Assembly (NCBI GenBank): GCA_900314465.1
Contig: OMVK01000006.1
Coordinates: forward strand, 87-64,086
Direction of reading: 5' to 3'
DNA length: 64,000 nucleotides
From: an uncultured bacterium
Lineage (GTDB): Bacteria > Bacillota_I > Bacilli_A > RF39 > UBA660
Shown here: positions 57,682-63,192 of the stretch, in pieces
How positions within the stretch are numbered: the stretch's first letter is position 1
How the letters are laid out: each line of letters starts with the position of its first letter
The notes under the pieces: model-generated
Database searches by the model: none
Seen by the model: the letters and a program-made list of their open reading frames with translations, nothing else
What the model was told of the DNA's origin: nothing
Translations under genes and position numbers: made by a program

Positions 57682-59592
57682 TTAATTAGAAAACTCCCAA
57701 TAAGCATTGGCTTGTGTAGATAAATAAGAAACAGTATATTTCTTGCCAGATTTATCAGCATGTTTTGAATTTGGATCATTTAATACAACATATCCATCAT
57801 CTGTTACACCAGTTAGTACAATAAAGTGACCATGACTTGTAAATTCACCAGCATGACAAGACATAATAACAGGATGTCCAGCTTTTAATGCACTTATAAT
57901 TGACTCTGATGATATTTGTTTACATTTTAATCCATAATAACCTGCAACTGCAGACATTATTGACCAACTTTGACCAGCGCCGCCAACATAAAAATTATTA
58001 TAATTACCAGTCTTATTTTCAATCATTTTAACTACATCTGAAGGATAAACCCATTTTGAACTATCAGTACCACCCTTTAAATAAGAAATAACCATTGCAA
58101 GTGAAGTTACTGAACATCCAGAAGAGCTTATAGTACCTCCACCAAATGCAACATTAGACCATGGTTGATTACCACTTTGAGAATAATAGACAACTGGATT
58201 ATTTCCACCATTATTTGGAATTTTATAATTAGATGCAACAATACCTAAATCTTGAACAGTAGAAGAAGTAACATTATTAAATTCATCACTAAAATTTATA
58301 TTGGCAGTAGCATAACTATCATTTAATCTATAATACTTAGTATAAATAGATGTTGCACTTTCAACAGCACCGTCGTTATTAGTAACATGAACCCATTTAT
58401 CACTACCATTATAAATACCAAAAAAATCCGTACTAGTACTACAACTATCTATAACGCCAAAGTCACCCATTTTTAAATCTTGTTCAGTTACTTCAGTAAA
58501 TAACGATGTATCACTGAATTTATCGCATCCAACAACTCCTGGATCATTTCCGGAAACACTCCATAAAAGATATCTAAGATATCCACTATATCCAATAGTT
58601 TTATTTTTTGATGGAGAAGAACTAGTAGGTTCTTTGCCACTTTCAAAAACAACTTTATTGGCAACTAATAAATAAGCACTTCCATAAACTTTAGAAGAAG
58701 TACTATCATCTGAAGTAACCATTTTTTCTATTTCATTATTATAATAACTATCATCATTATATAAATAATCATAATCACCAGAAGAAATGATACCATCAGC
58801 ATCTTCACCACTATTAGTTAAATCATTGTAGAGTTGAATTACAGGTGCAAGTATTACAACAAATAATATCAAACCTATAAGTATTCCTCCAACAATTGGA
58901 AGTGCCGCAATAATAATTTTCCTAGCAATAGGATTTTTGAGAATATTAGAAATTTTAGCCTTTCCACTATCTGCTCCTGATTGTGTTTCTGTCTCATTTT
59001 TTTCTTCTTGTTTGTCTTTACCAAATAAATTTGAAGGACTTAAATTATTCTTTATTGAATTACCAATATTACTTAAAGAACTTTTAAGGCCTGTATTATT
59101 GAGATCATTATTCTCAGGCAATTCTCTTTCATCTGGCAATCCCTGACCATTACTTAATTCACCTGTTTCATCGTTAGAATTTGCTTTTGCATTTATTCTA
59201 GCAACATTTTTATTTCTAAAATTATCAGGTACTATCTTTTCACCATTCTTTTTAATATTTTTAGCTTCTTTTAAAGCACTTGCACCAGCACCAACTAAGC
59301 CACCTTTAGCATACCCAACAGCAATATTTTTAGCCGATTTTCCTAAATTTTTAGCGGCATCTACTCTTTGATTAATATCACTAGGCATATTACCAAATGC
59401 ATCTTTTTCATTTATTTTTGTAGGATCAACTGGACCATTTATTTTATTTTTACCAATATCATTAATATTACTATCTTTTTTTTGATCAATATCTTTAATC
59501 GAAGGCTTATTATTACTAGTTAATTTATTAATATCATTATTAATATTATTTTGATTACTAGTATTATTAGTATCTACATTATTACTATTCAT
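57682..59592 (-). CDS. bitopic protein with extracytoplasmic papain-like cysteine peptidase domain (C39-like / NlpC-P60 superfamily)
   Basis: About 230-aa cytoplasmic N/K-rich region, TM (IIIAALPIVGGILIGLILFVVILAPVI). C-terminal domain with SSGCSVTSLAMVISYL (Cys nucleophile context) and SHGHFIVLTGVTDDGYVVLNDP (His) as in the Peptidase_C39_2 family. Confidence 0.5.
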   Translation of the reverse strand: MNSNNVDTNNTSNQNNINNDINKLTSNNKPSIKDIDQKKDSNINDIGKNKINGPVDPTKINEKDAFGNMPSDINQRVDAAKNLGKSAKNIAVGYAKGGLVGAGASALKEAKNIKKNGEKIVPDNFRNKNVARINAKANSNDETGELSNGQGLPDERELPENNDLNNTGLKSSLSNIGNSIKNNLSPSNLFGKDKQEEKNETETQSGADSGKAKISNILKNPIARKIIIAALPIVGGILIGLILFVVILAPVIQLYNDLTNSGEDADGIISSGDYDYLYNDDSYYNNEIEKMVTSDDSTSSKVYGSAYLLVANKVVFESGKEPTSSSPSKNKTIGYSGYLRYLLWSVSGNDPGVVGCDKFSDTSLFTEVTEQDLKMGDFGVIDSCSTSTDFFGIYNGSDKWVHVTNNDGAVESATSIYTKYYRLNDSYATANINFSDEFNNVTSSTVQDLGIVASNYKIPNNGGNNPVVYYSQSGNQPWSNVAFGGGTISSSGCSVTSLAMVISYLKGGTDSSKWVYPSDVVKMIENKTGNYNNFYVGGAGQSWSIMSAVAGYYGLKCKQISSESIISALKAGHPVIMSCHAGEFTSHGHFIVLTGVTDDGYVVLNDPNSKHADKSGKKYTVSYLSTQANAYWEFSN

Positions 59593-59615
59593 ATTAAACC
59601 TTCTTTCTAATATAT

Positions 59616-60637: not shown

Positions 60638-60654
60638 TTAATCACAACCTTATA

Positions 60655-63192
60655 TTAACTAAATATGTTACCATTAATTGGATTCATTTTTTGGTCACAT
60701 TGATATTGAGTATAGGCATCTTGATCTTCTTGAGTAGTTTTAACTGCTGGTTTACCATCACTACCTACACCACAAGACATTGTATGTGCTCCACTACTAT
60801 TTTCATAATCACATACTTCTCCTACATAACTAGCACGAGAATCTGACAAATATTGTTTAATATATGGATAATATATACATCCACCAGCTGACCATGAACC
60901 CTTTGCCCAACAATTACCTATATATGCATATTTAGACATAGCATCACCAATAGTATTGTATTTATTTATTGTACTAGCAAGTGATTTGACGCCATCATCA
61001 ACACCAGAAAAAGAATAACATGCACTAGCACCACCAGTATTAGTACAATTAATTCCCCAATAATTATGCGTGTTTCCACCTGGACTATTACCTTCAACAA
61101 TCGCTCTTGTAATAACAAATTCAGGATTAACATCATATTTCTTAGCACTATCATAATAAGCTCCTGCATTAGAACAAATATAACTAGCAAGCTTACCTGA
61201 TGTTTGACTACTATTACAATAACTATTTACCTTTGATACATATTCTTCTTTTGTTAAACTAGTTCCAGAAAATTTTGTTGATTTCCCACTAAGACCAGAA
61301 AATAAATATGAACTTTGTGGTCTTAAACTTGTACTTTCTTTTGATTCTTCCCATTTTCCAGCACCAGTAGATTGAAGTGGATCAATAGCATTATCAACAC
61401 TATTACTACCTATCCTAATTTCATAATGTAAACATGGTTCTAATACTTTACCAGTTGCTCCAAGTTTACCTAAGAGTTCACCCTGTACGACTTGAGCACC
61501 AGGTATTATTGCATCATCAATACTTGCAAGATGTGCATATATTACATAATCACCATTATCTGTTTGAACAACTACCTCATTACCATATCCTTCATTACAT
61601 TCATAATCAGATACTGTACAATCATTCTTTATTGAAATAACTGTACCTTTATAAACATTAATTACATTAGTAACACCATCTTCACCAGAAATATCTATTC
61701 CATAGTGCATCTCTTTCTTTTGATCAATAGGATCATAAGTTTCACCAAATCTACGAATTACAGCATCTGGTGTTTTCGTAGGTGTCCCATCAGCATAGGT
61801 AATACCATTTTCTTCTCTTGTTTCATTACTACCAATTGGCCAGTAATAATAACTACGATAATTAGTATCTTGAGTTTCTACACTTGTATAATCCGCAGTA
61901 CCATGACCATCATAACTGACTGCAACACCATAATTATTTAAATAATCAATAATATCATATATTATATCTAGTCTATCTTTTTCTAAGTCTTCTTCATAGT
62001 TTTGATAACCATCTGTTCCTACTTTTGCTTCAAGTGAATTATTACAAACATCACTAGTTAAGCAATCAACATTTTCAGGCTTTAATATATTATCTGTATA
62101 ATAACTTTGAAGTTGAGCTTTATTATCAAAATATTTAGAAGTTTTCAAAAAATCAAAATACTTATCAGTACTTACAGATTGATCAACATCACCATTACTA
62201 GATAAATATGTATAATATCCGCCTTGTGATACACAGTTATCATAATATGGATCATCAAACTCTTCATCATAAAATTTAGCATTTATCTTACGCTTACTGT
62301 CATGCAAAAGTCTTCCAGTATGATAATATGTAAATCCTAATTCATAACCGCCATTTCCTTCCAACTCTTGTGCACAAAATTTACTATAAGAAAACTTAAG
62401 ATTATTTGCATCATTAAAAAATATATCAATGTCTCTAATTACTGTACCAAATCCTGTTAACTGATCTTCCGCAATATATACATCAGTTTCATAAGAACCC
62501 TCAGGACATGTTGTCTCAGTACTACCATCATCTTTAGTAATAGTTACTTTATTTAATTTTTTATAACAATGAGTCCTATAAGCTATCATATTTTTAAGTA
62601 ATGTTTTTAAAGTATTTCTTTCATTATCATAATAATCAGCTAATGTATTTGCGGTATCAGAATCACTTCTTTTAATATCAGCATAATCATTTAATTCAAC
62701 ATCTGCATCAGGAATAACTGTTTCACCATTTTCATCCTTTTGTGAATTAATCGAATCACCATTTACAACCACATAACTAGGTTCATAATAATTATTAACA
62801 TCTTTATCACTAACGGGTGCATCATCAGAAACTTTATCATTTGCATACATTGGATCAAGCATATAAAATACTGTACCAATTATAATATTATCATTAATAT
62901 GATACCCATCAGCTTCGTATTCAGCAAGCATCTTATAAAGAGATACATAAAAGTTTTTTTGTGCTTTTAATGTGACTTCATCACACCCATCAGTTTCTCC
63001 TTCTTTTTTACATGTATCATTCCAATAATTAATATTCTTTTTATAAAATTCATCCCAATTAAAATCAGTATAATCAAAATAAGAAGCCTTTACTGGAAAA
63101 GAAATAACTAATATAAGCACAAAAACAAGAATCATTATTATATGACTCTTGTTCTTTAACATTTTATTATTTAAGTTCTTATATTTAAACAT
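60655..63192 (-). CDS. conjugation-associated bifunctional cell-wall hydrolase: M23 metallopeptidase domain plus C-terminal lysozyme/transglycosylase-like Cys-rich domain
   Basis: N-terminal TM. M23 motifs HYGIDISGEDG...HLHYEI. C-terminal VITRAIVEGNSPGGNTHNYWGINC... with a catalytic-Glu-like context and many Cys. Sits directly after the VirB4 gene as cwlT/orf14 do in ICEBs1/Tn916. Confidence 0.65.
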   Translation of the reverse strand: MFKYKNLNNKMLKNKSHIIMILVFVLILVISFPVKASYFDYTDFNWDEFYKKNINYWNDTCKKEGETDGCDEVTLKAQKNFYVSLYKMLAEYEADGYHINDNIIIGTVFYMLDPMYANDKVSDDAPVSDKDVNNYYEPSYVVVNGDSINSQKDENGETVIPDADVELNDYADIKRSDSDTANTLADYYDNERNTLKTLLKNMIAYRTHCYKKLNKVTITKDDGSTETTCPEGSYETDVYIAEDQLTGFGTVIRDIDIFFNDANNLKFSYSKFCAQELEGNGGYELGFTYYHTGRLLHDSKRKINAKFYDEEFDDPYYDNCVSQGGYYTYLSSNGDVDQSVSTDKYFDFLKTSKYFDNKAQLQSYYTDNILKPENVDCLTSDVCNNSLEAKVGTDGYQNYEEDLEKDRLDIIYDIIDYLNNYGVAVSYDGHGTADYTSVETQDTNYRSYYYWPIGSNETREENGITYADGTPTKTPDAVIRRFGETYDPIDQKKEMHYGIDISGEDGVTNVINVYKGTVISIKNDCTVSDYECNEGYGNEVVVQTDNGDYVIYAHLASIDDAIIPGAQVVQGELLGKLGATGKVLEPCLHYEIRIGSNSVDNAIDPLQSTGAGKWEESKESTSLRPQSSYLFSGLSGKSTKFSGTSLTKEEYVSKVNSYCNSSQTSGKLASYICSNAGAYYDSAKKYDVNPEFVITRAIVEGNSPGGNTHNYWGINCTNTGGASACYSFSGVDDGVKSLASTINKYNTIGDAMSKYAYIGNCWAKGSWSAGGCIYYPYIKQYLSDSRASYVGEVCDYENSSGAHTMSCGVGSDGKPAVKTTQEDQDAYTQYQCDQKMNPINGNIFS

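What the first reader, a model, noticed from the sequence alone, without database searches (positions are those of the whole stretch)
57682..63192. Unusual hydrolase complement: M23 plus lysozyme-like bifunctional enzyme and a separate C39-like cysteine peptidase instead of the usual lysozyme plus NlpC/P60 CwlT
Firmicute conjugation hydrolases (CwlT, Orf14, TcpG) typically combine a muramidase with an NlpC/P60 or CHAP peptidase. Here the peptidase partner is a Zn-dependent M23 domain (HYGIDISGEDG...HLHYEI) fused to a Cys-rich lysozyme-like domain. Three genes downstream is a bitopic protein with a C39_2-like papain-fold domain (GCSVTSLAMV ... HGHFIVLTG), which is otherwise known from bacteriocin processing or YvpB-type proteases. 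This may reflect adaptation to an unusual peptidoglycan cross-link or a processing role for the C39-like domain.
Basis: partly seen in the sequence, partly recalled or inferred. Interest (0 to 1): 0.55.

Follow-up and report, generated by a model that had tools for sequence, protein, structure and literature searches.

The report
Wall-cutting enzymes of a chromosomal T4SS
The two genes are the cell-wall-opening enzymes of a type IV secretion machine in an uncultured low-GC gut bacterium; they are a reshuffled version of a known enzyme set, in which a dead NlpC/P60 peptidase domain has had a working C39-like cysteine peptidase added to it.

Summary
Both ORFs and their main domains are real. The 845-aa protein has an M23 domain (Pfam 2.9e-17). 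The 636-aa protein is bitopic and ends in a Peptidase_C39_2 domain (2e-19). Both lie between VirB4- and VirD4-like ATPases.

Three corrections:
- The quoted M23 motif 'HLHYEI' is actually C587-L-H589-YEI. The three zinc ligands are conserved across the family, but the first His of HxH is present in only 3 of 43 relatives. The domain is probably regulatory or weakly active, like LytM of PrgK.
- The C-terminal 'lysozyme-like' domain is a divergent GH73-like (glucosaminidase-fold) domain with an invariant Glu700. It is not CwlT's PF13702.
- NlpC/P60 is not absent. The 636-aa protein keeps a dead NlpC/P60 relic (catalytic Cys deleted, His→Phe) upstream of C39_2. Most positional orthologues have an intact NlpC/P60 and end there. 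The window's clade has dead relics plus different added peptidases (M15_4, a second NlpC/P60, C39_2).

The nearest C39_2 relatives are fused to peptidoglycan glycosidases and sit beside VirB4 genes in other conjugation loci. This points to wall cleavage, not leader-peptide processing.

It is a new variant of a known kind (PrgK/TcpG-type). Separately, the whole T4SS sits at one fixed chromosomal site in at least 55 species and has no relaxase.

The parts
63210..64000 (-). C-terminal part of the VirB4-like T4SS ATPase. The gene runs off the window end; it is 597 aa in the full locus L001.
   Evidence: Pfam P-loop_TraG/AAA_10 and NCBIfam VirB4_plasma 5.3e-40. The full gene is seen.
60655..63192 (-). 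845-aa VirB1-like wall hydrolase: signal/anchor, Cys-rich N-domain, M23 domain, GH73-like domain.
   Evidence: The family has 70 clusters, all from uncultured Bacilli.
63088..63144 (-). N-terminal hydrophobic segment (residues ~17-35, then 'VKA|SY'): a signal peptide or signal anchor.
   Evidence: Hydropathy windows. A cleavage site is inferred only.
61753..63087 (-). N-terminal extracellular domain (residues ~36-480), function unknown. It has 8 Cys, all invariant in the family.
   Evidence: Alignment A1. No Pfam or PDB sequence match.
61393..61710 (-). M23 (LytM-type) domain, residues 495-600. Zn ligands H496, D500 and H589 are present and catalytic His554 is present. The other catalytic His is replaced by Cys587.
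   Evidence: Pfam 2.9e-17; alignment to lysostaphin; column counts.
60658..61275 (-). Divergent GH73-like (lysozyme-superfamily) glycosidase domain, residues ~640-845. It has invariant E700 followed by N710-Y-W-G713.
   Evidence: PF01832 E 0.0075, below threshold. AF2 model pLDDT 85. The Foldseek top hits are LytB, SagB, Acp and phage glucosaminidases. Conservation.
60110..60637 (-). 175-aa bitopic protein (N-terminal TM plus ~130-aa ectodomain). It is conserved in all type A loci and is a candidate VirB8-like partner.
   Evidence: Synteny; alignment A6. No PDB or Pfam match, so the role is inferred only.
59616..60110 (-). 164-aa bitopic protein, weakly related to the 175-aa one. It is a second candidate VirB8-like protein.
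   Evidence: hhalign of A6 against A7 gave only 32% probability.
57682..59592 (-). 636-aa bitopic protein: low-complexity cytoplasmic N-region, TM, dead NlpC/P60 domain, intact C39_2 domain.
58852..59592 (-). Asn/Lys-rich cytoplasmic region (residues 1-223) and TM helix (residues ~224-247).
   Evidence: Composition and hydropathy. The orthologues have the same layout.
58318..58701 (-). Degenerate NlpC/P60 domain (residues ~298-425). The catalytic Cys is deleted ('GY--SGY' against 'GLDCAGF'), the first catalytic His is replaced by Phe390 ('TDFFGIY' against 'TNHTGIY'), and the third residue, His402, is kept.
   Evidence: BLASTP to positional orthologues 9e-9 and 3e-11. Those orthologues hit PF00877. 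Alignment A4. The A4 profile hits Spr/MepS at 5e-12 with the catalytic-triad columns aligned.
57685..58248 (-). C39_2 papain-fold domain (folded unit residues ~449-636; Pfam match 467-608) with Gln472, Cys493, His589 and Asn605-Asp606.
   Evidence: Pfam 2e-19. Q, C and H are invariant in 60 relatives. AF2 pLDDT is 96-99 over this part. The Foldseek top hit is the pseudomurein endoisopeptidase PeiR at 5.5e-7.
57435..57662 (-). 75-aa small membrane protein, function unknown.
   Evidence: Gene call in L001. Only sub-threshold Pfam hits.
56705..57445 (-). 246-aa protein with a signal peptide, a Ser/Thr-rich stalk and a C-terminal TM: a surface protein of unknown role.
53859..56654 (-). VirD4-like coupling protein (931 aa) with a long low-complexity C-terminal tail. 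It is the last gene of the cluster; rmuC follows.
   Evidence: Pfam T4SS-DNA_transf 2e-51. NCBIfam conju_CD1115 scores 300 bits against a cut-off of 250.

Best explanation
The two genes encode the peptidoglycan-remodelling module of a Gram-positive-type type IV secretion system. That system is fixed in the chromosome of an uncultured, ~25% GC gut Bacilli lineage.

The 845-aa protein is exported. Its C-terminal GH73-like domain probably cuts the glycan strand, with Glu700 as the catalytic acid (inferred). Its M23 domain still has the three zinc ligands but lacks one of the two catalytic histidines (Cys587). It probably acts as a peptide-stem binding or regulatory domain, or as a weak peptidase, much like the LytM domain of PrgK (inferred).

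The 636-aa protein is anchored by one TM helix with its C-terminal part outside. Its ancestral NlpC/P60 endopeptidase domain is catalytically dead and is probably kept as a scaffold. A C-terminally added C39_2 papain-fold domain with an intact Gln-Cys-His-Asp/Asn set has taken over cleavage of the peptide stem or cross-link (inferred).

Together they would open a local hole in the wall for the channel built by the neighbouring VirB6-, VirB3- and VirB4-like, candidate VirB8-like, and VirD4-like proteins.
For: Shown:
- T4SS context: VirB4 and VirD4 hits and the full cluster.
- M23 mapping: H496, D500, H554, C587 and H589 align with lysostaphin H32, D36, H82, H113 and H115. In 43 family members the ligand positions are conserved in 41-43. 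Position 587 is His in 3 of 43 and position 554 in 30 of 43. The same window's PcsB-like M23 (49842-51101) keeps HxxxD and HLH.
- GH73-like domain: sub-threshold PF01832. The AF2 model has pLDDT 85. The best PDB fold hits are all GH73 (LytB 5.8e-3, SagB, Acp), and the best viral hits are N-acetylglucosaminidases (1.4e-3, rmsd 3.1 Å). E700 and NYWG are invariant.
- The glycosidase is modular. Distant relatives of the 845-aa protein match only ~70% of it and carry Phage_lysozyme, Phage_lysozyme2 or VanY besides M23, apparently in place of the GH73-like domain. In ~27 other species the GH73-like domain is fused directly to C39_2 or NlpC/P60, right after VirB4.
- Dead NlpC/P60.
- Replacement pattern: 19 of 27 aligned proteins at this gene position have an intact Cys/His/His and end there (18 positional orthologues) or carry an extra extension (L031). 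The window's VirB4 clade (L007, L008, L010, L014) has dead domains plus M15_4 or an unidentified add-on. L009, whose locus lacks VirB4, has a Cys→Ser domain plus a second NlpC/P60. L029, outside that clade, has M15_4 only.
- C39_2 as a wall module: among its 60 nearest relatives there are matches to Phage_lysozyme2 (10), VgrG3-like_C (4), NlpC/P60 (4), 3D (3), Hydrolase_2 (3), SLT (2), GH25 (1) and SLT_2 (1).
- Its closest relatives, P0074 and P0077 (58-60% identical), and plasmid 'C39 family peptidases' lie beside VirB4-like ATPases.
- The best fold match is a cell-wall cross-link cysteine peptidase, PeiR.
- Precedent: in PrgK only the glycosidase domain is active in vitro, and LytM is degenerate and regulatory (PMC11323569).
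Against: - There is no biochemical evidence for any domain.
- The GH73 assignment rests on weak scores: Pfam below the gathering score, Foldseek E of 1e-3 to 1e-2 and TM about 0.4.
- The M23 domain keeps all zinc ligands and one catalytic His, so residual or altered activity cannot be excluded.
- In PrgK the cysteine-peptidase (CHAP) domain showed no hydrolytic activity in vitro, so an intact triad does not prove wall cleavage.
- The pseudo-NlpC/P60 part could not be modelled (pLDDT below 50).
- The fold list for C39_2 also contains leader-peptide proteases and toxins.
- The bond cleaved is unknown.
Confidence: 0.68

Rival explanations
1. The C39_2 domain is a processing protease. It would mature a secreted T4SS component, adhesin or peptide (for example the neighbouring 75-aa or 246-aa proteins) rather than cutting peptidoglycan.
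For: C39-type domains are best known from leader-peptide cleavage. The fold hits include the ComA and PCAT1 peptidase domains at E of 1e-3 to 1e-2. The 75-aa neighbour has a sub-threshold YxzE-like bacteriocin hit (E 0.008). The CHAP domain of PrgK had no wall-hydrolytic activity in vitro (PMC11323569).
Against: The domain is predicted to be extracellular, whereas the C39 domains of ABC exporters are cytoplasmic (general knowledge). PF03412 is below threshold (18.6 against 22) and no ABC exporter is present. Its nearest relatives are fused to peptidoglycan glycosidases. It occupies the slot of NlpC/P60, M15_4 or a second NlpC/P60 in orthologues. The best fold hit is a wall isopeptidase.
Confidence: 0.1
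2. The M23 domain is a fully active zinc endopeptidase, so the system has three activities (glycosidase, metallo-endopeptidase, cysteine peptidase) tuned to a particular cross-link.
For: The Pfam match is strong. The Zn ligands H496, D500 and H589 and catalytic H554 are present. The ligands are under strong conservation.
Against: The position equivalent to lysostaphin H113 / LytM H291 is Cys here and is A/N/C/I/S/D/E/V in 40 of 43 relatives. Position 554 is also non-His in 13 of 43, so catalysis is not what selection preserves. LytM in PrgK is a non-catalytic precedent (PMC11323569). That both catalytic His residues are needed for activity is from my memory of the LytM and lysostaphin literature and was not checked here.
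Confidence: 0.25
3. Only the glycosidase domain works. Both peptidase-like parts (M23 and C39_2) are regulatory or scaffolding, as was found for PrgK.
For: In PrgK in vitro, only the SLT/muramidase domain was active, while LytM and CHAP down-regulated it (PMC11323569).
Against: Q472, C493 and H589 of C39_2 are invariant in 60 relatives. In the window's VirB4 clade and in L009, dead NlpC/P60 domains come with a newly added peptidase domain, with intact motifs where the domain could be identified: M15_4, a second NlpC/P60, or C39_2. This argues that catalytic peptidase activity is selected for.
Confidence: 0.15
4. The cluster is a decayed integrative conjugative element, and the odd hydrolase set reflects pseudogenisation.
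For: No relaxase or integrase was found in the cluster. Two domains carry inactivating changes.
Against: All ORFs are intact. The cluster is at the same chromosomal site in at least 55 species-level genomes. Its VirB4 is 72-84% identical across type A loci, comparable to L20 (72-75%, one partial match aside) and FtsE (77-81%) in the same loci.
Confidence: 0.05

Closest known systems
PrgK of Enterococcus faecalis pCF10 (VirB1-like, DELTA class: LytM - SLT/muramidase - CHAP)
   Same: The module content is the same: an M23/LytM domain with a non-canonical active site, a glycan-cleaving domain, and a papain-superfamily cysteine peptidase. It is also encoded inside a Gram-positive T4SS cluster. The bitopic layout with a long cytoplasmic N-region is seen in the 636-aa protein (PMC11323569; PMC12857230 section 10).
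   Different: - Here the modules are split over two genes, with two small genes in between.
- The glycosidase is GH73-like, not SLT.
- The cysteine peptidase is C39_2 plus a dead NlpC/P60, not CHAP.
- The M23 domain keeps its zinc ligands, whereas PrgK LytM has lost HxxxD and HxH and binds no metal.
- A ~445-aa Cys-rich N-domain has no counterpart in PrgK.
TcpG of Clostridium perfringens pCW3 (FlgJ-type glucosaminidase + NlpC/P60; recalled from the literature, not re-read here)
   Same: It pairs GH73-type glycosidase chemistry with a papain-fold peptidase. The 'type B' relatives of this cluster have exactly this two-domain layout, GH73-like plus NlpC/P60 or C39_2. An E. bolteae plasmid with annotated TcpD and TcpE family genes has a C39_2 protein immediately after the VirB4-like ATPase, where I recall TcpG lying in pCW3.
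   Different: The window's version is split over two proteins. It has an extra M23 domain and N-domain. Its NlpC/P60 is dead. The GH73-like domain does not reach the PF01832 threshold.
CwlT of ICEBs1 and Orf14 of Tn916 (PF13702-type muramidase + NlpC/P60)
   Same: The role is the same: a VirB1-like two-activity hydrolase of Firmicute conjugation systems.
   Different: There is no PF13702 match in any of the 43 family members. No entry described as CwlT is among the Foldseek hits with E up to 10. The domain order and partners differ.
Phage lysin and tail-lysin catalytic modules (Peptidase_C39_2, Phage_lysozyme2, Glucosaminidase)
   Same: C39_2 is already catalogued as a catalytic domain of lysins of Gram-positive phages (PMC8223927; PMC13284279). 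Relatives of this C39_2 domain are fused to Phage_lysozyme2. The GH73-like model matches phage glucosaminidases.
   Different: The genomic context here is a T4SS, not a phage. There is no cell-wall-binding domain.
Mycoplasma ICE conjugation apparatus (Mbov_0397-type VirB4)
   Same: The best NCBIfam match of the VirB4 fragment is the mycoplasma ICE ATPase family (5.3e-40, far below that family's 590-bit cut-off). Both are minimal sets of VirB4, VirD4, VirB6-like and VirB3-like proteins.
   Different: Mycoplasma ICEs lack VirB1-like and VirB8-like parts (PMC12857230 section 21). This walled organism has an elaborate hydrolase module, and its cluster is not on an ICE.

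Membership tests
Peptidase M23 (LytM/lysostaphin type) | Pfam PF01551 match above the gathering score | tested here: met
   63.1 bits against 28.7, residues 495-600. PDB M23 chains score down to 6.8e-8.
Peptidase M23 (LytM/lysostaphin type) | HxxxD motif and the last His of HxH (the three Zn ligands) | tested here: met
   H496, D500 and H589 align with lysostaphin H32, D36 and H115. 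They are conserved in 41-43 of 43 relatives.
Peptidase M23 (LytM/lysostaphin type) | Both catalytic histidines (lysostaphin H82 and H113, the latter being the first His of HxH) | tested here: not met
   H554 is present, but position 587 is Cys. That position is His in only 3 of 43 relatives.
GH73 / Glucosaminidase (PF01832) | Pfam match above the gathering score | tested here: not met
   17.4 bits against 30.2 (E 0.0075). Only 2 of 43 relatives give any hit.
GH73 / Glucosaminidase (PF01832) | GH73 fold, with the conserved catalytic Glu in the N-terminal helix region followed by an aromatic-Gly motif | tested here: inconclusive
   The top PDB hits are LytB, SagB and Acp (E from 5.8e-3, TM about 0.3-0.37). 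The top viral hits are glucosaminidases (E 1.4e-3, rmsd 3.1 Å over 133 columns). E700 and N710-Y-W-G713 are invariant. A residue-level superposition on a GH73 catalytic Glu could not be made.
CwlT-type muramidase (Lysozyme_like PF13702) or SLT (PF01464) | Pfam match | tested here: not met
   There is no hit at E up to 0.1 in any of 43 relatives. SLT-like structures appear only near E of 0.15-10.
Peptidase_C39_2 (PF13529) | Pfam match above the gathering score, plus conserved Gln/Cys/His | tested here: met
   71 bits against 24. Q472, C493 and H589 are invariant in 60 relatives, and N605-D606-P are conserved in at least 90%. Model pLDDT is 96-99.
C39 bacteriocin-processing peptidase (PF03412, N-terminal domain of ABC exporters) | Pfam match above the gathering score, fusion to or pairing with an ABC exporter, and a cytoplasmic location | tested here: not met
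   18.6 bits against 22. There is no exporter in the cluster. The domain lies C-terminal to the TM helix, with a predicted outside location.
NlpC/P60 (PF00877) endopeptidase | Homology to the domain | tested here: met
   BLASTP 9e-9 and 3e-11 to positional orthologues that hit PF00877. The orthologue profile hits Spr/MepS at 5e-12. The window protein itself gives no Pfam hit.
NlpC/P60 (PF00877) endopeptidase | Catalytic Cys and first His of the Cys-His-His triad | tested here: not met
   The Cys column is a 2-residue deletion and the His column is Phe390. Only the third residue, His402, remains.
Gram-positive VirB1-like T4SS hydrolase | Encoded within a cluster that has VirB4-, VirB6- and VirD4-like genes, and is membrane-anchored or exported with extracellular hydrolase domain(s) | tested here: met
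   Cluster composition (TrbL/VirB6 weak, 9e-4). Hydrophobic segments.
PrgK-type DELTA class | Three extracellular hydrolase domains on one polypeptide behind a cytoplasmic domain and a TM helix | tested here: not met
   The modules are divided between the 845-aa protein (no cytoplasmic domain) and the 636-aa protein. Class definition from PMC12857230.
Integrative conjugative element or conjugative plasmid | Relaxase, and an integrase or replication functions, linked to the T4SS genes | tested here: not met
   No such Pfam or NCBIfam hit in the cluster or its immediate flanks in the window or in L001, L005 and L006. The flanks are infC-rpmI-rplT and rmuC-ftsEX. A relaxase elsewhere in the genome was not testable.

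The most novel reading that the evidence does not exclude
The T4SS that these hydrolases serve may not be a selfish mobile element. It may be a vertically inherited, core-genome machine of a whole lineage of uncultured, small-genome gut Bacilli. It sits at the same site between rplT and rmuC in at least 55 species and has no linked relaxase or integrase. Its ATPases evolve as slowly as ribosomal proteins. If so, it would serve a host function such as chromosomal DNA exchange, DNA uptake or release, or contact-dependent delivery into neighbouring cells. The fast, repeated replacement of its wall-cutting peptidase (NlpC/P60 to M15_4, a second NlpC/P60, or C39_2) would then track changes in the wall that has to be breached, possibly the wall of the partner cell rather than its own.
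Probability: 0.3. Interest if true: 0.7.

Novelty: new variant of a known kind. Interest (0 to 1): 0.45.

Why it matters
Gram-positive T4SSs must breach a thick wall, and only a few of their hydrolases (PrgK, TraG, CwlT, TcpG) have been studied. This locus adds three things.

- It gives a clear natural series in which a dead NlpC/P60 domain is retained while different new peptidase domains are bolted on. This shows that the peptidase activity, not the particular fold, is what selection keeps.
- It provides evidence that Peptidase_C39_2 is a common but uncharacterised wall-hydrolase module of Firmicute conjugation systems.
- It shows an M23 domain caught between active and fully degenerate states, with zinc ligands kept and a catalytic His lost.

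The side observation, a relaxase-less T4SS fixed in the core chromosome of an uncultured gut lineage, would matter more if it is confirmed.

Tried and rejected
- PDB sequence searches with the 845-aa protein and with the family profile found only M23 chains. They found nothing for the N-domain or the C-terminal domain.
- A PDB sequence search with the 636-aa protein gave only a borderline Spr hit (E 0.92). That hit was the lead to the NlpC/P60 relic.
- The first homologue search with the full 636-aa protein was swamped by its low-complexity N-region and returned 8 hits. It was repeated with residues 270-636 against the representative library.
- Profiles of the 175-aa and 164-aa proteins found no solved VirB8-like or TcpC-like structure. 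The hhalign comparison between the two was weak. The VirB8-like label therefore remains an inference.
- The AF2 model of residues 270-636 failed for the pseudo-NlpC/P60 part because the alignment was shallow there.
- A plasmid search with the GH73-like domain found no match.
- No tRNA or Rfam feature marks an integration site.
- Literature searches for RF39 plus T4SS terms found nothing relevant.
- The GTDB order of the lineage could not be established. RF39- or RFN20-like is only my guess.
- I considered and rejected a decayed ICE, a bacteriocin-export system, and a CwlT-type muramidase.

Full report
**What is at the coordinates**

The window is ~25% GC throughout, and almost all genes are on the minus strand. 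It has no tRNA genes and no Rfam features.

At its right end lies this gene series, all on the minus strand:
- a VirB4-like ATPase, cut by the window end
- an 845-aa ORF (60655-63192)
- ORFs of 175 aa and 164 aa
- a 636-aa ORF (57682-59592)
- ORFs of 75 aa and 246 aa
- a 931-aa VirD4-like coupling protein (53859-56654)

Housekeeping genes follow: rmuC, ftsE, ftsX and a PcsB-like M23 protein.

The same contig is present in wolf-gut metagenomes and shows the rest of the cluster beyond the window. The full order is: infC-rpmI-rplT | 127 aa | 788 aa (weak TrbL/VirB6 match) | 116 aa | 207 aa | VirB4 (597 aa) | 845 aa | 175 aa | 164 aa | 636 aa | 75 aa | 246 aa | VirD4 | rmuC-ftsEX. No relaxase or integrase family hits any of these genes.

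**The 845-aa protein**

The M23 domain is solid (PF01551, 2.9e-17, residues 495-600).

Alignment to lysostaphin gives these equivalences:
- H496 = H32
- D500 = D36
- H554 = H82
- C587 = H113
- H589 = H115

It reproduces the residue numbering I recall for the enzyme (H32, D36, H82, H113, H115).

So the three zinc ligands and one catalytic His are present, and the other catalytic His is not. In an alignment of 43 family members (35-85% identical over the full length):
- The ligand positions are conserved in 41-43 sequences.
- Position 587 is His in only 3.
- Position 554 is His in 30.

The PcsB-like M23 protein of the same window keeps HxxxD, the middle His and HLH. The loss is therefore specific to the T4SS protein.

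Selection thus preserves metal binding, not the catalytic pair. I read the domain as a binding or regulatory domain, or at best a weak peptidase. It stands between active M23 enzymes and the fully degenerate, metal-free LytM domain of PrgK (PMC11323569).

The C-terminal ~205 residues have only a sub-threshold Glucosaminidase match (PF01832, E 0.0075). They have no PF13702 or SLT match in any relative and no sequence match in the PDB.

An AlphaFold model built on the family alignment is confident (pLDDT 85, pTM 0.83). Its best structural neighbours are GH73 enzymes in two independent libraries:
- In the PDB: LytB (E 5.8e-3), SagB and the C. perfringens autolysin Acp.
- In BFVD: phage N-acetylglucosaminidases (E 1.4e-3, rmsd 3.1 Å over 133 columns).

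Glu700, followed by N710-Y-W-G713, is invariant and fits the GH73 pattern of a catalytic Glu followed by an aromatic-Gly motif. The scores are weak, so I call the domain GH73-like and do not file it as a member of PF01832.

Domain swaps support a wall-glycosidase role at this position. Distant relatives that match only the first ~70% of the query carry Phage_lysozyme, Phage_lysozyme2 or VanY besides M23, apparently in place of the GH73-like domain.

Residues 36-480 form a Cys-rich domain of unknown function (8 invariant Cys). It follows an N-terminal signal or anchor segment.

**The 636-aa protein**

It has three regions:
- an Asn/Lys-rich N-region
- one hydrophobic helix (residues ~224-247) whose flanking charges predict N-in, C-out
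- a C-terminal Peptidase_C39_2 domain (2e-19) with Gln472, Cys493, His589 and Asn605-Asp606

These residues are invariant or nearly invariant in its relatives. This part of the model has pLDDT 96-99. Its best structural match is the pseudomurein endoisopeptidase PeiR, a cysteine peptidase that cuts a cell-wall cross-link (E 5.5e-7). Other papain-fold proteases and the ComA and PCAT1 C39 domains follow.

The key result concerns residues ~298-425. They are homologous to the NlpC/P60 domain of the proteins encoded at the same position in related clusters:
- BLASTP gives 9e-9 and 3e-11.
- Those orthologues hit PF00877.
- The profile of 27 aligned proteins at this position (25 positional orthologues, the window protein and its 74%-identical relative P0071) hits Spr/MepS at 5e-12, with the Spr catalytic triad aligned.

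In the window protein the catalytic Cys is deleted ('GY--SGY' against 'GLDCAGF'). The first catalytic His is Phe ('TDFFGIY' against 'TNHTGIY'). NlpC/P60 is therefore present, but dead.

**Comparative picture**

A scan of one genome per species found the 845-aa family or its GH73-like domain in 129 genomes. tblastn with all cluster proteins against the 80 loci kept showed the T4SS cluster in at least 55 of them.

These genomes are labelled Bacilli, Tenericutes, Acholeplasmatales or Erysipelotrichales MAGs. They come from ruminant, rabbit, mouse, human and chicken guts.

Wherever the contigs reach far enough, the cluster sits in the same place: infC-rpmI-rplT upstream and rmuC-ftsEX downstream.

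Two deep clades appear on a VirB4 tree:
- **Type A**, which includes the window. The layout is N-domain-M23-GH73-like, then the 175-aa and 164-aa genes, then a separate bitopic peptidase protein.
- **Type B.** A single protein directly after VirB4 carries the GH73-like domain fused to C39_2 (L034, L035, L040, L041) or NlpC/P60 (L042, L060). This is a TcpG-like layout.

Within type A:
- 18 positional orthologues have an intact Cys/His/His NlpC/P60 and end right after it. L031 also has an intact triad but carries a C-terminal extension.
- The window's own VirB4 clade has dead domains plus a new C-terminal domain. L007, L008 and L010 have Cys→Ala and His→Asp with Peptidase_M15_4 (E 1e-16 to 1e-18); the A4 profile, which includes these add-ons, also matches the L-Ala-D-Glu peptidase Ply500. 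L014 has Cys→Ser and His→Asp with an unidentified extension. The window and P0071 have C39_2.
- L009 (Cys→Ser) has a second, intact NlpC/P60. Its locus lacks VirB4, so it is not on the tree.
- L029, outside that clade, has M15_4 only.

The simplest reading is one inactivation of NlpC/P60 in the ancestor of that clade. The dead domain was then retained, presumably as a scaffold, and different replacement peptidases were grafted on.

**Where the C39_2 module comes from**

Only one other protein, P0071 (85% identical over this region), shares the relic-plus-C39_2 architecture among 1.8 billion representatives. The C39_2 domain itself has 3674 relatives.

Among its 60 nearest relatives, the matching families are Phage_lysozyme2 (10), VgrG3-like_C (4), NlpC/P60 (4), 3D (3), Hydrolase_2 (3), SLT (2), GH25 (1) and SLT_2 (1).

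The closest relatives (58-60% identical) lie next to or near VirB4-like ATPases, in loci that also carry VirD4, TrbL_4, T4SS_pilin, resolvase and ParA genes.

In RefSeq plasmids, annotated 'C39 family peptidases' lie close to the VirB4-like ATPase:
- In an Enterocloster bolteae plasmid with annotated TcpD and TcpE family genes and a MOBM relaxase, the protein comes immediately after the ATPase.
- In a C. botulinum plasmid, a C39_2+3D protein lies two genes after it.

Surveys of phage lysins already list Peptidase_C39_2 as a catalytic domain (PMC8223927; PMC13284279).

C39_2 is therefore a recurrent, though to my knowledge biochemically untested, wall-hydrolase module of Firmicute conjugation systems. 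This argues against a leader-peptide-processing role. So do the predicted extracellular location, the absence of an ABC exporter, and the sub-threshold PF03412 score.

**How it most likely works**

Shown:
- the T4SS context
- the domain identities and residue states
- the replacement pattern
- the partners of C39_2

Inferred:
- The GH73-like domain cuts glycan strands using Glu700.
- The C39_2 domain cuts the peptide stem or cross-link using Cys493 and His589.
- The M23 domain and the dead NlpC/P60 domain bind peptidoglycan or partners, or modulate activity, as LytM and CHAP do in PrgK.
- The 175-aa and 164-aa proteins are the VirB8-like partners that dock the hydrolases. PrgK binds PrgL (PMC11323569). 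Here there was no detectable match to solved structures.

**Comparison with known systems and novelty**

In module content this is closest to PrgK (LytM - glycosidase - cysteine peptidase). In chemistry it is closest to TcpG (GH73 + papain-fold peptidase). It is not a member of the DELTA, ALPHA or BETA architectures as described (PMC12857230), for four reasons:
- The modules are split over two genes.
- The glycosidase is a new divergent GH73-like family.
- The M23 domain is in an intermediate state.
- The peptidase is a relic plus a graft.

Domain shuffling among wall hydrolases is common, and C39_2 in T4SS loci is widespread in sequence data. I therefore rate this a new variant of a known kind, with moderate interest.

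The more surprising point lies outside the finding. The T4SS has no relaxase, sits at a fixed chromosomal site across a whole uncultured lineage, and has ATPases conserved like housekeeping genes. Across type A loci VirB4 is 72-84% identical, against 72-75% for L20 and 77-81% for FtsE. The extracellular parts are only 27-45% identical. I give that reading as the novel case.

Noticed in passing
window 53859-64000 and beyond; loci L001, L005-L062: The whole T4SS-like cluster lies at the same chromosomal position (infC-rpmI-rplT upstream, rmuC-ftsE-ftsX-pcsB downstream) in at least 55 species-level MAGs of uncultured gut Bacilli/'Tenericutes'. It has no relaxase or integrase in the cluster. VirB4 is 72-84% identical across type A loci, as conserved as L20 or FtsE. 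It looks like a vertically inherited core machine rather than an ICE.
   Followed up: partly
loci L007, L008, L009, L010, L014, L029, L031 (gene after the 164-aa homologue): The peptidase slot of the cluster is highly plastic. Dead NlpC/P60 domains are combined with Peptidase_M15_4, a second NlpC/P60 or an unidentified extension. L029 has M15_4 only. L031 has an intact NlpC/P60 plus an extra Cys/His-containing extension.
   Followed up: partly
loci L034-L061 (gene directly after VirB4): In a second deep clade ('type B'), the GH73-like domain is fused in one protein to C39_2 or NlpC/P60. The 175-aa and 164-aa genes, the M23 domain and the N-domain are not detectable there.
   Followed up: partly
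window 49842-52619 (-): A FtsE-FtsX-PcsB-like division hydrolase module lies next to the cluster. Its M23 domain has a complete HxxxD / His / HLH set, unlike the T4SS M23 domain.
   Followed up: partly
window 53859-56654 (-), residues ~560-931 of VirD4; window 58924-59592 (-), residues 1-223 of the 636-aa protein: Both proteins have long Asn/Lys/Asp-rich low-complexity regions predicted to be cytoplasmic. Orthologues have Ala/Gly/Thr- or Lys/Glu-rich regions at the same place. The sequence is not conserved but its presence is, which may point to a disordered interaction platform.
   Followed up: no
window 30312-33248 (-) and 45401-47572 (-): Two large ORFs (978 aa and 723 aa) have no Pfam match at 1e-5. 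They sit among otherwise ordinary housekeeping genes (ThrRS, RNase J, RseP, MiaB-like, MurJ-like flippase, P-type ATPase).
   Followed up: no
L087 (E. bolteae plasmid NZ_CP069521) 8353-9504; L088 (C. botulinum pFWSKR40E1) 7813-9861: Annotated 'C39 family peptidase' genes lie one or two genes downstream of VirB4-like ATPases on plasmids of cultured Clostridia. One is fused to a 3D domain. These would be tractable models for testing C39_2 wall-hydrolase activity.
   Followed up: partly
window 56705-57445 (-): A 246-aa protein has a signal peptide, a folded N-part, a Ser/Thr/Asn-rich stalk and a C-terminal TM anchor. It is conserved in only some type A loci (L008, L027 by tblastn). It may be a surface adhesin of the T4SS.
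   Followed up: no
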